Of a stretch of DNA of 64,000 nucleotides, positions 12,001-15,000 are shown one piece after another. The stretch is from Escherichia coli. Lineage in GTDB: Bacteria > Pseudomonadota > Gammaproteobacteria > Enterobacterales > Enterobacteriaceae. The DNA lies in the NCBI RefSeq assembly GCF_017348835.2, contig NZ_CP071375.1. One strand, 5' to 3'. Position numbers: made by a program. Numbering within the stretch: the stretch's first letter is position 1; each line of letters begins with the position of its first letter.

Positions 12001-15000
12001 ACTGCTCTGGCAGCATGAGACCAGACACGCTTACAACGCGCAGGGGCTGGCGAACCGCTGTATACCGGACAGCCTGCCCGCCGTGGAATGGCTGACCTAC
12101 GGCAGCGGCTGGCTGGCAGGCATGAAACTCGGCGACACACCGCTGGTGGAGTACACCCGCGACCGCCTGTACCGGGAAACGCTGCGCAGATTCGGCCGTT
12201 ATGAACTCACCACCGCTTACACCCCTGCCGGGCAGTTACAGAGCCAGCACCTGAACAGCCTGCAGTATGACCGCGATTACACCTGGAACGACAACGGCGA
12301 ACTCATCCGCATCAGCAGCCCGCGCCATACCCGGAGTTACAGCTACAGCGACTCCGGCAGGCTGACCGGCGTTCACACCACGGCAGCGAACCTTGATATC
12401 CGCATCCCGTATGCCACGGACCCGGCAGGTAACCGCCTGCCCGACCCGGAGCTGCACCCGGACAGCACCCTCAGCATGTGGCCGGATAACCGTATCGCCC
12501 GTGACGCGCACTATCTTTACCGGTATGACCGTCACGGCAGACTGACAGAGAAAACCGACCTCATCCCGGAAGGGGTTATCCGCACGGATGATGAGCGCAC
12601 CCACCGGTACCATTACGACAGTCAGCACCGGCTGGTGTACTACACGCGGACACAATATGCAGAGCCGCTGGTCGAAAGCCGCTATCTTTACGACCCGCTG
12701 GGCCGCAGGGTGGCAAAACGGGTATGGCGACGTGAACGGGACCTGACGGGCTGGATGTCGCTGTCACGGAAACCGGAAGTGACCTGGTACGGCTGGGACG
12801 GCGACCGCCTGACCACAATACAGAACGACAGAACCCGCATCCAGACGATTTATCAGCCGGGGAGCTTCACGCCACTCATCAGGGTTGAAACCGCCACCGG
12901 TGAGCTGGCGAAAACGCAGCGCCGCAGCCTGGCGGATGCGCTTCAGCAGTCCGGCGGCGAAGACGGTGGCAGTGTGGTGTTCCCGCCGGTGCTGGTGCAG
13001 ATGCTCGACCGGCTGGAAAGTGAAATCCTGGCTGACCGGGTGAGTGAGGAAAGCCGCCGCTGGCTGGCATCGTGCGGCCTGACTGTGGAGCAGATGCAAA
13101 ACCAGATGGACCCGGTGTACACGCCGGCGCGAAAAATCCACCTGTACCACTGCGACCATCGCGGCCTGCCGCTGGCGCTTATCAGTGCGGAAGGGGCTAC
13201 AGAATGGTGCGCAGAATACGATGAATGGGGCAACCTGCTGAATGAAGAGAACCCGCATCAGCTGCAGCAGCTTATCCGCCTGCCGGGGCAGCAGTATGAT
13301 GAGGAGTCCGGCCTGTATTACAACCGCCACCGCTATTATGACCCGCTGCAGGGGAGGTATATCACTCAGGATCCGATTGGGCTGAAGGGGGGATGGAATT
13401 TTTATCAGTATCCGTTGAATCCGATAACTGATATTGACCCGTTGGGATTAGCGACCTGTTTATACAGCATAACTTTAAGTATGCTTTCATGCGTTTCAGA
13501 TACGCAAAATGATGATAACTCTTATGATGTGCTTACTATTCCTGTCGCCTCTGGTAATAATGGTAATAATATGCAATGTAAAAATAATCCTGGTTGTACA
13601 CACTTACAAAATAGAGGTCCAATACCTCAAGGGGTATGGAGCTGGAATGTTAATGGTCCTGGAGCAACCAATAGAAAACCTAATGGTATACGTTTAGTAC
13701 CGTCAGCAAATACAGAAACATATAATCGTGATGGATTTTTAACACATAGTTGTTTAAACGCTTTCGGTCCGTCTTTAGGACCTCGATTCTGTTCCGAGGG
13801 TTGTATAACTGGTTCATCTAATGACATGCAAAAATTAAATGAGTTAATATTTTCAGAGCCAGATAGCACATTAACAGTTACGGACTAAAAAATATGGCAA
13901 AGTTATTAACAATTGTATTTTTTTCTCTATTTCTGCGAGTGCAGTTACTGCAAGACAATTTCAGAGAGAGTTAGATTTGGCAGACAAAGCAATATTATGG
14001 GCACTAATATCAGCCAGTACTAAAGAGGGACGAAAAGCGTGTTCACTTAGCTATTTTGCCTGTAAGGCCGCAGAGGCTGAACTCGGACTGGCATATATGG
14101 CTGCGAATGATAACAAGGAATTTCTCACATCCTTATCTAATATAATGAGGTACAAAATAGATGCTGGACTTTCCGAATCCTATACATGCTATTTATTAAG
14201 TAAGGGAAAGATCATAAGACCATATCTGAAAAATCTAAATCCACTCCAACTTGCCGCTGATTGCATTGAAACAGTAAATAAAATAAAAGATAAGAATAAA
14301 AAAATCATTGATATAAATTCAGTTAATATTTGTAGTGATGATAAAAATATAAAATTGAGAGTTAATAGTACTATTATGGCCATTGATGATTCTATAAAAT
14401 GCATCGATGAATAATAACTTAATTTTATTTAAAAATATATTAATAAGTCACTCTCCAGGAGTTTTTTTAACTTAGTTTTATAATGAATACGATAATTAAA
14501 AGTGAAGAAGAAAATAGTTGTATACATATATTCCATGACCCTACATTGTGATCTATAGATTAAATATTTTTTAAATGTGACTGTCATCCTTCAGATAATA
14601 AAGCCATCATCGCAATAGATGGAAAAGCACTCCTGCTCTTTTTTGATTAGAGCCGTCGCAGGAGGAACAACTCATATCATCATTGCGATCTCGACAATGT
14701 ATAGTCTGATCCTTCGGCAGATCAAGACGGATAAAAAATCCAATGAGTTCACACTCATCCCGAACTTCTTAACATAATGGATATTAACGAAAAATCATCA
14801 CAGCCGATGAAATAATATGCAAAAATAATTAGTCCTTACAAGGAGCAAAGTTCCATAATCTCCCCCCTCCCCCTCAATGATCCAAATAAAGATAATGCAT
14901 CCAGCTGGTCATTCTTAGCAGCACTTTTCGCATCACCGAAACATGACTGAAATGGTCGGAGTAAACTGCCACCTGGGCGTAAATGCCGTCGGGTAAGGCA

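What the first reader, a model, noticed from the sequence alone, without database searches (positions are those of the whole stretch)
13451..13888. Unassigned Rhs toxin tip, possibly a periplasm-acting enzyme
The ~145-aa domain after DPLGL is AT-rich, which is typical of horizontally exchanged toxin tips, and does not match any toxin family I can name with confidence. It is Cys/His-rich. A His followed about 20 residues later by SEGCI resembles the active-site spacing of L,D-transpeptidase-fold (YkuD / Tlde1-like) enzymes, but that is a weak motif-level guess. A cell-wall-targeting activity would fit the signal peptide apparently intended for the downstream immunity gene.
Basis: inference. Interest (0 to 1): 0.65.

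Follow-up and report, generated by a model that had tools for sequence, protein, structure and literature searches.

The report
Rhs toxin tip: Tlde1 cell-wall peptidase

Summary
Window 13451-13888 encodes a 145-aa tip directly after DPLGL of the Rhs protein at the E. coli rhsA locus (yibF-rhs-imm-yibH). The tip is 37% G+C against 62% for the core, has 7 Cys, and has His99 19 residues before Cys118 in SEGCI. It is not His-rich (2 His).

The tip can be assigned:
- It matches Pfam Tlde1_dom (PF10908, E 3e-7).
- A profile alignment pairs R93/H99/G117/C118 with Tlde1a R115/H121/G130/C131. All four are experimentally required in Tlde1a, for toxicity (H121, C131) or for peptidoglycan digestion (C131, R115, G130).

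The downstream gene is Imm57 (E 2e-47). Intact alleles of it carry a Sec signal peptide. A periplasmic, peptidoglycan-directed toxin is therefore well supported.

This arrangement is already described: Rhs-DUF2778 fusions in Shigella/Escherichia, and the Tox-LD-peptidase + RHS + Imm57 link. About 3,640 of 5,426 complete E. coli genomes carry most of the tip-and-immunity module. Where I looked, it was a displaced orphan copy (K-12: yibS/yibW-yibV).

In this window the pair is dead. There is an in-frame TGA at Rhs codon 581, and a 1-nt deletion cuts off the immunity signal peptide. Interest is low.

The parts
9710..11449 (+). N-terminal 580 codons of the Rhs protein (DUF6531 plug-like domain plus RHS repeats)
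   Evidence: ORF list. Pfam gives DUF6531 at E 5.6e-17 and several RHS_repeat hits; PAAR_motif reaches only E 0.18.
11450..11452 (+). In-frame TGA stop at Rhs codon 581. The same frame continues to 13888.
   Evidence: The window reads CAG TGA ATT. Strains PE164 and F2_81 are identical to the window over the 13.4-kb and 10.4-kb stretches compared, apart from this one base. They read TTA (Leu) here and have an intact 1392-aa Rhs.
11453..13450 (+). Remainder of the Rhs core, ending in the PxxxxDPLGL demarcation motif (DPLGL = 13436-13450)
   Evidence: ORF 11459-13888 is in the same frame as 9710-11452. The Pfam RHS core domain PF03527 (E 1.1e-14) maps to about 13136-13246.
13451..13888 (+). 145-aa toxin tip plus stop codon: a Tlde1-family, L,D-transpeptidase-fold domain. 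The Pfam match covers about 13571-13840.
13745..13747 (+). Codon of His99, the predicted catalytic histidine
   Evidence: Invariant in 32 relatives. Aligns with Tlde1a H121, whose H121A mutant loses toxicity.
13793..13804 (+). Codons of S115-E116-G117-C118, the (S/T)xGC motif with the predicted nucleophile Cys118
   Evidence: S115, G117 and C118 are invariant. They align with Tlde1a S128, G130 and C131. C131A loses toxicity. C131A and G130Q lose peptidoglycan digestion.
13894..14414 (+). Imm57-family immunity gene, frameshifted. The signal-peptide frame runs 13894-13974 and the mature-domain frame runs 13977-14414. One base is missing at the T run 13918-13924.
   Evidence: The repaired protein matches Pfam Imm57 at E 1.9e-47. 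RefSeq annotates the identical DNA as 'Imm57 family immunity protein, frameshifted'. Comparison with the intact allele of strain Ec73552 shows GTGCTTTTTTTC there against GTATTTTTTTC here.

Best explanation
The tip is a Tlde1-family peptidoglycan L,D-peptidase toxin domain. It is carried as the exchangeable C-terminal cargo of the Rhs protein at the E. coli rhsA locus and is paired with a periplasmic Imm57 immunity protein.

**Inferred mode of action, by homology with Tlde1a**
- The Rhs shell encloses the unfolded tip.
- The tip is cut off after DPLGL by the Rhs aspartyl autoprotease.
- A type VI secretion spike delivers the particle into a neighbour's periplasm.
- There the tip folds, probably fixed by three disulfides (C3-C14, C43-C49, C101-C114).
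- Cys118 and His99 attack the mDAP3-D-Ala4 bond of tetrapeptide stems.
- The enzyme trims the stems to tripeptides, or swaps D-Ala4 for another D-amino acid. Donors for cross-linking are lost, which leads to division failure and lysis.
- Sibling cells are protected by Imm57 exported through Sec.

**What is shown here:** family membership, fold, conservation and alignment of the catalytic residues, the immunity family, and its signal peptide in intact alleles.

**What is inferred:** the bond cleaved, the disulfides, autoproteolysis and the T6SS route.

**State in this window:** the module is genetically dead. The rhs gene has a TGA at codon 581, and the immunity gene has lost its signal peptide through a 1-nt deletion. 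The immunity frameshift is widespread. The nonsense codon is absent from the two nearest genomes. The immunity defect probably came first.
For: **Toxin family and fold**
- Pfam Tlde1_dom matches at E 3e-7, tip residues 41-130 to model positions 10-106 of 120. The match recurs in the context of the longer fragment.
- 26 of 32 relatives match the same Pfam family at E <= 0.001.
- The AF2 model has pLDDT 88.2 and pTM 0.84.
- The 11 best Foldseek PDB hits are all L,D-transpeptidase-fold proteins.

**Catalytic residues**
- Invariant in the family: C3, C14, G35, G56, P59, P84, H99, S115, G117, C118. Conserved in at least 90%: R93, C43, C101, C114.
- hhalign of the family profile against Tlde1a pairs R93, H99, S115, G117, C118 with R115, H121, S128, G130, C131.
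- H121A and C131A abolish Tlde1a toxicity. C131A, R115A and G130Q abolish peptidoglycan digestion.

**Immunity and compartment**
- Imm57 matches at E 1.9e-47.
- Six of the seven aligned homologues have N-terminal hydrophobic signal sequences (the seventh, P0212, lacks that region), and all have six invariant Cys.
- Strain Ec73552 has an intact 1392-aa Rhs with a 96%-identical tip and an intact 173-aa Imm57 at the same yibF/yibH site.

**Literature**
- Rhs-DUF2778 fusions and the link to Imm57 are reported.
Against: - No experiment exists on this subfamily.
- The His-to-Cys distance is 19 residues, against 10 in Tlde1a. The motif is SEGC rather than SHGC, and the Tlde1a capping subdomain is absent. 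The bond specificity could therefore differ.
- Sequence searches alone do not reach Tlde1a in the PDB. The link rests on the Pfam profile, one hhalign hit (E 6e-4, probability 29%) and the predicted fold.
- The Rhs N-terminus shows no convincing PAAR domain (E 0.18).
- The 64-kb window holds no T6SS gene, so the delivery route is assumed.
- In this strain the rhs gene is interrupted, so nothing may be made at all.
Confidence: 0.85

Rival explanations
1. The fold is the same but the chemistry differs. The tip would be an L,D-fold cysteine peptidase that cuts another periplasmic bond: the Lpp-peptidoglycan link (as the DpaA/LdtF amidase does) or 3-3 cross-links. It would not be a Tlde1a-like LD-carboxypeptidase/exchange enzyme.
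For: - This subfamily has a 9-residue insert, flanked by C101 and C114, between the catalytic His and Cys.
- It lacks the Tlde1a capping subdomain. The Tlde1a authors say that subdomain shapes activity and is absent from Tlde1b and Tlde1c.
Against: - R93 and G117 are conserved. They are the counterparts of R115 and G130, which Tlde1a needs for peptidoglycan digestion, and the Tlde1a authors take their conservation to mean a shared D-amino-acid exchange activity.
- Pfam places the tip in Tlde1_dom, not YkuD.
Confidence: 0.12
2. The module still works in this strain. The C-terminal 809-codon ORF (GTG 11459 to 13888) or TGA read-through would yield a tip-bearing protein. The immunity protein would be made from an alternative start or by slippage on the T run.
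For: - The tip itself carries no disabling change and is 96% identical to the allele of an intact pair.
- A GTG lies 7 nt after the TGA.
- Some records annotate a 169-aa Imm57 starting inside the frameshifted region (P0171, 788 member sequences).
Against: - A fragment starting at codon 584 would lack the N-terminal domain that plugs the Rhs shell and loads it on the secretion spike.
- The alternative immunity start lacks a charged N-region and an ATG.
- RefSeq marks the immunity gene as a frameshifted pseudogene in three strains.
- A run of seven T is short for efficient slippage (general knowledge).
Confidence: 0.07
3. The tip is a cytoplasm-acting toxin (nuclease, deaminase or ADP-ribosyltransferase), as most Rhs tips are.
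For: Rhs/PAAR effectors usually carry cytoplasm-acting toxins (PMC12994826).
Against: - No such family was found by Pfam, NCBIfam, PDB sequence search or fold search.
- The tip has seven Cys in conserved pairs, and the immunity protein carries a signal peptide. Both point to the periplasm.
Confidence: 0.02

Closest known systems
Tlde1a (Tae5-STM, STM14_0336) of Salmonella Typhimurium, PDB 7UMA, with immunity Tldi1a
   Same: - Same Pfam family, PF10908.
- The Arg, His, Ser, Gly and Cys active-site residues align.
- Disulfide-stabilised, and its immunity protein has a Sec signal peptide.
   Different: - Tlde1a is a free-standing 173-aa cargo effector. This one is fused to an Rhs shell.
- His-to-Cys spacing is 10 in Tlde1a and 19 here. 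The motif is SHGC there and SEGC here.
- Tlde1a has a capping subdomain that is missing here.
- The immunity families differ: DUF2195 there, Imm57 here.
- Sequence identity is 18% in the structural alignment.
Rhs-DUF2778 fusions of the Tae7/Tlde1c group (example Shigella sonnei WP_052983304.1), and the 'Tox-LD-peptidase + RHS + Imm57' class of Zhang et al. 2012
   Same: The architecture is the one seen here: Rhs repeats, an L,D-peptidase tip and an Imm57 neighbour, in beta- and gamma-proteobacteria. A Shigella sonnei Imm57 is 99% identical to the one in the window (P0172).
   Different: None that I could establish. I could not retrieve WP_052983304.1 to confirm that it is the same allele. No member of this group has been tested experimentally, as far as the searched library shows.
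E. coli K-12 orphan module yibS/yibW (pseudogenes), yibV (PF15596) and yibU
   Same: It occupies the same chromosomal position, just upstream of yibH. Its translated fragments match the tip and the Imm57 body of the window closely.
   Different: In K-12 the tip is a displaced orphan broken into several frames, with a GNNGNN to GNN deletion. YibV lacks both the signal peptide and the C-terminus. In the window the tip is still joined in frame to a full-length Rhs core.
Rhs + Imm57 pair of E. coli strain Ec73552 (WP_392711716.1 / WP_000113245.1)
   Same: Same locus and same architecture. The tip matches at 139 of 145 residues.
   Different: Both genes are intact there. The window carries the TGA at codon 581 and the 1-nt deletion in the immunity signal peptide.
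Housekeeping L,D-carboxypeptidases Csd6 (H. pylori) and Pgp2 (C. jejuni), and YkuD-type L,D-transpeptidases
   Different: These are cell-shape and cell-wall maintenance enzymes, not toxins. The tip does not match the Pfam YkuD model.

Membership tests
Tlde1 / DUF2778 (Pfam PF10908) | Significant match to the family profile | tested here: met
   Tlde1_dom matches at E 3e-7, score 31.3. The match repeats in the longer fragment at E 2.8e-6. 26 of 32 relatives match at E <= 0.001. Precomputed Pfam annotations list PF10908 for close homologues.
Tlde1 / DUF2778 (Pfam PF10908) | L,D-transpeptidase catalytic fold | tested here: met
Tlde1 / DUF2778 (Pfam PF10908) | Catalytic His and Cys within H...(S/T)xGC, equivalent to Tlde1a H121 and C131 | tested here: met
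   H99 and C118 are invariant and align with H121 and C131.
Tlde1 / DUF2778 (Pfam PF10908) | Conserved Arg and Gly (Tlde1a R115, G130) needed for peptidoglycan digestion and D-amino-acid exchange | tested here: met
   R93 (at least 90% conserved) and G117 (invariant) align with R115 and G130.
Tlde1 / DUF2778 (Pfam PF10908) | Toxic in the periplasm; LD-carboxypeptidase / LD-transpeptidase exchange activity on peptidoglycan | not testable with these tools
   Needs expression assays and muropeptide analysis.
Tlde1 / DUF2778 (Pfam PF10908) | Adjacent cognate immunity gene whose product is exported | tested here: met
   The family trait is met. An Imm57 gene lies 5 nt downstream (the gap is 13889-13893), and six of the seven aligned homologues have N-terminal signal sequences. 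In this window the signal peptide is out of frame.
YkuD L,D-transpeptidase (Pfam PF03734) | Match to the YkuD profile | tested here: not met
   The tip has no YkuD hit. Only 1 of 32 relatives reaches E <= 0.001. The fold is shared, but the tip is not a member of this sequence family.
Rhs polymorphic toxin | RHS repeats, the RHS core domain, and a DPxGL demarcation followed by a variable tip of different composition | tested here: met
   RHS_repeat hits. PF03527 at E 1.1e-14. DPLGL at 13436-13450. G+C drops from 62% to 37%.
Rhs polymorphic toxin | Uninterrupted reading frame from the N-terminus to the tip | tested here: not met
   There is a TGA at 11450-11452. The nearest genomes have TTA. In this window the gene is a pseudogene of the family rather than a working member.
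Rhs polymorphic toxin | PAAR domain and T6SS linkage | tested here: inconclusive
   PAAR_motif reaches only E 0.18 over 18 residues, while DUF6531 is present. No T6SS gene lies in the 64-kb window. The rest of the genome was not available.
Imm57 (Pfam PF15596) | Match to the family profile, located next to an LD-peptidase toxin | tested here: met
   E 1.9e-47 across the whole model. Zhang et al. 2012 link Imm57 to Tox-LD-peptidase.

The most novel reading that the evidence does not exclude
The Rhs-linked branch of the Tlde1 family has a 9-residue insert, apparently closed by a C101-C114 disulfide, between the catalytic His and Cys. It also has three conserved Cys pairs. It could be a functionally distinct toxin in two ways. 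First, it might become active only after oxidation by the target cell's own Dsb system. Second, it might cut a different cell-wall bond from the one Tlde1a cuts.

Separately, this lineage may record the order of decay of a periplasmic toxin-immunity pair, with the immunity signal peptide lost first and the toxin knocked out afterwards.
Probability: 0.15. Interest if true: 0.45.

Novelty: already known. Interest (0 to 1): 0.15.

Why it matters
Little is at stake for discovery. The family, its fold, its chemistry, its fusion to Rhs and its pairing with Imm57 are all published, and annotation pipelines already label these genes.

The result is useful in smaller ways:
- It tidies annotation. It explains the E. 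coli K-12 pseudogenes yibS and yibW and the gene yibV as the remains of a Tlde1/Imm57 module.
- It gives a clear example of a periplasm-acting Rhs tip, whereas Rhs cargo is usually cytoplasm-acting.
- It points to intact alleles, such as that of strain Ec73552, that could be used to test the still uncharacterised Rhs-linked Tlde1 branch.

Tried and rejected
- **Sequence searches against the PDB.** I used the tip alone, two family profiles and two distant relatives. None reached Tlde1a. Only weak hits to YkuD-type transpeptidases appeared (E 0.13-1.4). The other hits (a mitoribosomal protein, fibroinase, titin) are chance.
- **NCBIfam.** No family matched the tip. The weak HisIE hit for the immunity ORF (E 0.025, far below its cut-off) is chance.
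- **Structure prediction of the mature Imm57.** It gave a poor model (pLDDT 55, all-helical), so I ran no fold search on it.
- **Promoter and terminator scan of 13400-14900.** It found no more sites than shuffled sequence gives.
- **Confirming the published Shigella sonnei example.** I looked for WP_052983304.1 in the supplement of PMC9638812 to see whether it is the same allele. It is not in the stored part of that file.
- **Telling orphan copies from full-length copies.** Contigs that carry the intact Imm57 allele break at the rhs repeats, so I used complete genomes instead.
- **Considered and rejected.** A nuclease or deaminase tip has no support anywhere. A sequencing error as the cause of the immunity frameshift is unlikely, because the same allele is present in independent complete genomes and in a cluster of 788 member sequences.
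Full report
**Where the window lies.** The window is from Escherichia coli. The finding sits in the rhsA locus: selA (7384-8775, minus strand), yibF (8873-9481, minus), a large Rhs gene (9710-13888, plus), a short gene (13894-14414, plus) and yibH (14874-16010, minus). Over 13.4 kb the window differs by a single base from pig isolate PE164. It differs by the same single base from F2_81 over 10.4 kb.

**Checking the observation.**
- DPLGL is encoded at 13436-13450. The tip runs from Ala at 13451 for 145 codons to the stop at 13886-13888.
- The tip is 37.0% G+C and the Rhs core is 61.7%.
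- There are seven Cys (positions 3, 14, 43, 49, 101, 114, 118) but only two His (51, 99). The tip is Cys-rich, not His-rich.
- His99 lies 19 residues before Cys118 of SEGCI.

**What the tip is.**
- A Pfam scan names it. Tlde1_dom (PF10908, formerly DUF2778) matches at E 3e-7 over tip residues 41-130. The match recurs when the last 392 residues of the Rhs protein are scanned, where it follows the RHS core domain PF03527.
- NCBIfam and a direct sequence search of the PDB gave nothing.
- Word-based homologue search found 25 relatives. They are mostly C-terminal ends of Rhs proteins from Paraburkholderia, Ralstonia and an acidobacterium, 48-65% identical, and most are already tagged PF10908.
- A profile search of 1.84 billion representative proteins found 392 clusters at E <= 0.001. 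In many, the domain is the last ~140 residues of proteins 900-1600 aa long.
- In an alignment of 32 members that are 26-62% identical to the tip, C3, C14, G35, G56, P59, P84, H99, S115, G117 and C118 are invariant. R93, C43, C101 and C114 are conserved in at least 90%.
- 26 of these 32 match Tlde1_dom on their own. Only one matches YkuD.

**Structure.**
- AlphaFold2 on a 12-sequence alignment gave a confident model, with pLDDT 88.2 and pTM 0.84.
- The 11 best Foldseek matches against the PDB are all L,D-transpeptidase-fold proteins: Bd1075, DpaA and several Ldts.

**Residue-level link to the characterised enzyme.**
- I took the Tlde1a sequence (ACY86862.1) from the supplementary alignment of Lorente Cobo et al. 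2022 (PMC9638812) and compared it with the family profile.
- hhalign aligned 53 columns (E 6e-4, probability 29%). It pairs R93, H99, S115, G117 and C118 of the tip with R115, H121, S128, G130 and C131 of Tlde1a.
- H121A and C131A abolish Tlde1a toxicity (bioRxiv 10.1101/2020.02.18.954545). C131A, R115A and G130Q abolish peptidoglycan digestion (supplementary table).
- Weak profile hits to YkuD-type enzymes align the same His and SxGC motif.

**Differences from Tlde1a.**
- The His-to-Cys distance is 19 residues instead of 10.
- The extra residues are flanked by C101 and C114. These two Cys are absent together in the two family members that have the short spacing; a third lacks C101 only.
- The motif reads SEGC rather than SHGC.
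- The Tlde1a capping subdomain is missing. The authors report that Tlde1b and Tlde1c also lack it.

**The immunity gene.**
- With one base restored, the downstream gene encodes a 173-aa protein that matches Pfam Imm57 (PF15596) at E 1.9e-47.
- Intact alleles exist. The 173-aa form (P0176, RefSeq WP_000113245.1; 542 member sequences) begins MARLLTIVLFFSISANAVTV.
- Homologues from Citrobacter and others, 51-59% identical in the alignment, all begin with a comparable hydrophobic leader. All share six invariant Cys in the mature part.
- Taken together with seven Cys in the toxin, an exported immunity protein argues for action in the periplasm. This is inference, but it is consistent with the periplasm-only toxicity shown for Tlde1a.

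**State of the pair in this window.**
- The immunity gene is broken. The window reads ATTGTATTTTTTTCTC where the intact allele reads ATTGTGCTTTTTTTCTC. One base is missing at the T run 13918-13924. The signal-peptide frame ends at a stop at 13972-13974, and the Imm57 body (13977-14414) is left without a leader.
- RefSeq marks the same allele as 'frameshifted' in PE164, F2_81 and ETEC6335.
- The Rhs gene carries an in-frame TGA at 11450-11452 (codon 581). PE164 and F2_81 have TTA there and an intact 1392-aa protein.
- The toxin is therefore not joined to its N-terminal delivery region here.
- The frameshift is widespread, and the nonsense codon is absent from the two nearest genomes. The immunity defect probably came first. 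This ordering is an inference.

**Distribution.**
- 3,644 of 5,426 complete E. coli genomes hold at least 80% of 13300-14700, mostly at 90-95% identity.
- In the three other genomes I opened with a different main Rhs gene, it is a displaced orphan at the distal end of the rhsA array. Examples are ETEC6335 and strain 6409. In K-12 it is decayed into the pseudogenes yibS and yibW, the truncated yibV, and yibU.
- A few strains, such as Ec73552, have it as the tip of the main full-length Rhs gene with an intact Imm57. That tip matches the window's at 139 of 145 residues.

**What is already known.**
- Zhang et al. 2012 listed Tox-LD-peptidase toxins with RHS repeats and Imm16/Imm57 immunity proteins in beta- and gamma-proteobacteria (PMC3482391).
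- The Tlde1 discovery preprint reports Rhs-DUF2778 fusions (example Shigella sonnei WP_052983304.1). They fall mainly in the Tae7 (= Tlde1c) group, in 387 of 3,510 genomes, and the preprint cites the Imm57 link.
- GenBank records already call the 1392-aa protein 'DUF2778 domain-containing protein'. RefSeq uses 'tlde1 domain-containing protein' for some copies.
- I found no experimental work on the Rhs-linked branch in the searched library.

**Mechanism (inferred).**
- Rhs shell, autoproteolytic release after DPLGL and T6SS delivery rest on general knowledge of Rhs effectors. They are not shown here.
- The N-terminus has DUF6531 and RHS repeats but no convincing PAAR domain. No T6SS gene lies in the window.
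- In the periplasm the tip would fold with up to three disulfides and act as a Cys/His L,D-peptidase on tetrapeptide stems, as Tlde1a does.
- A different bond specificity cannot be excluded, given the insert and the missing cap (for example the Lpp-peptidoglycan link, as in DpaA).

**Verdict.** The tip is a known kind of toxin in a known architecture, and in this strain it is a pseudogene pair. Interest is low.

Noticed in passing
window 11450-11452: In-frame TGA at codon 581 of the Rhs gene. The two closest complete genomes (PE164 and F2_81) are identical to the window apart from this one base, over the 13.4-kb and 10.4-kb stretches compared. They have TTA (Leu) here and an intact 1392-aa protein.
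   Followed up: yes
window 13894-13974 and 13918-13924: A 1-nt deletion at a run of seven T separates the Imm57 signal peptide from the mature domain. The same frameshifted allele occurs in several independent complete genomes. An intact 173-aa allele exists in others.
   Followed up: yes
window 14415-14870 (ORF 14619-14777): A very AT-rich spacer (22-25% G+C in its 5' part, rising towards yibH) lies between the immunity gene and yibH. It contains a 52-codon ORF that corresponds to the K-12 pseudogene yibU. Its origin was not examined; it may be another remnant of an rhs-associated module.
   Followed up: partly
window 22931-27778 (+): An intact 1615-codon ORF for an ESPR-signal / YadA-like trimeric autotransporter adhesin. 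In strain PE164 the same gene is split by an IS3-family insertion that the window lacks.
   Followed up: partly
genomes NZ_CP114128.1 (PE164) and NZ_CP043542.1 (F2_81), relatives of the window: These two genomes each show only one place that matches the Rhs 3' core plus tip query. Other E. coli show a median of five. This lineage may have far fewer rhs elements than usual.
   Followed up: no
L003 (E. coli K-12) 8640-10147: The K-12 pseudogenes yibS and yibW translate, in pieces, to the same Tlde1 tip. YibV is an Imm57 body without its signal peptide and C-terminus. The K-12 annotation ('PF15596 family protein') does not spell out this toxin-immunity origin.
   Followed up: partly
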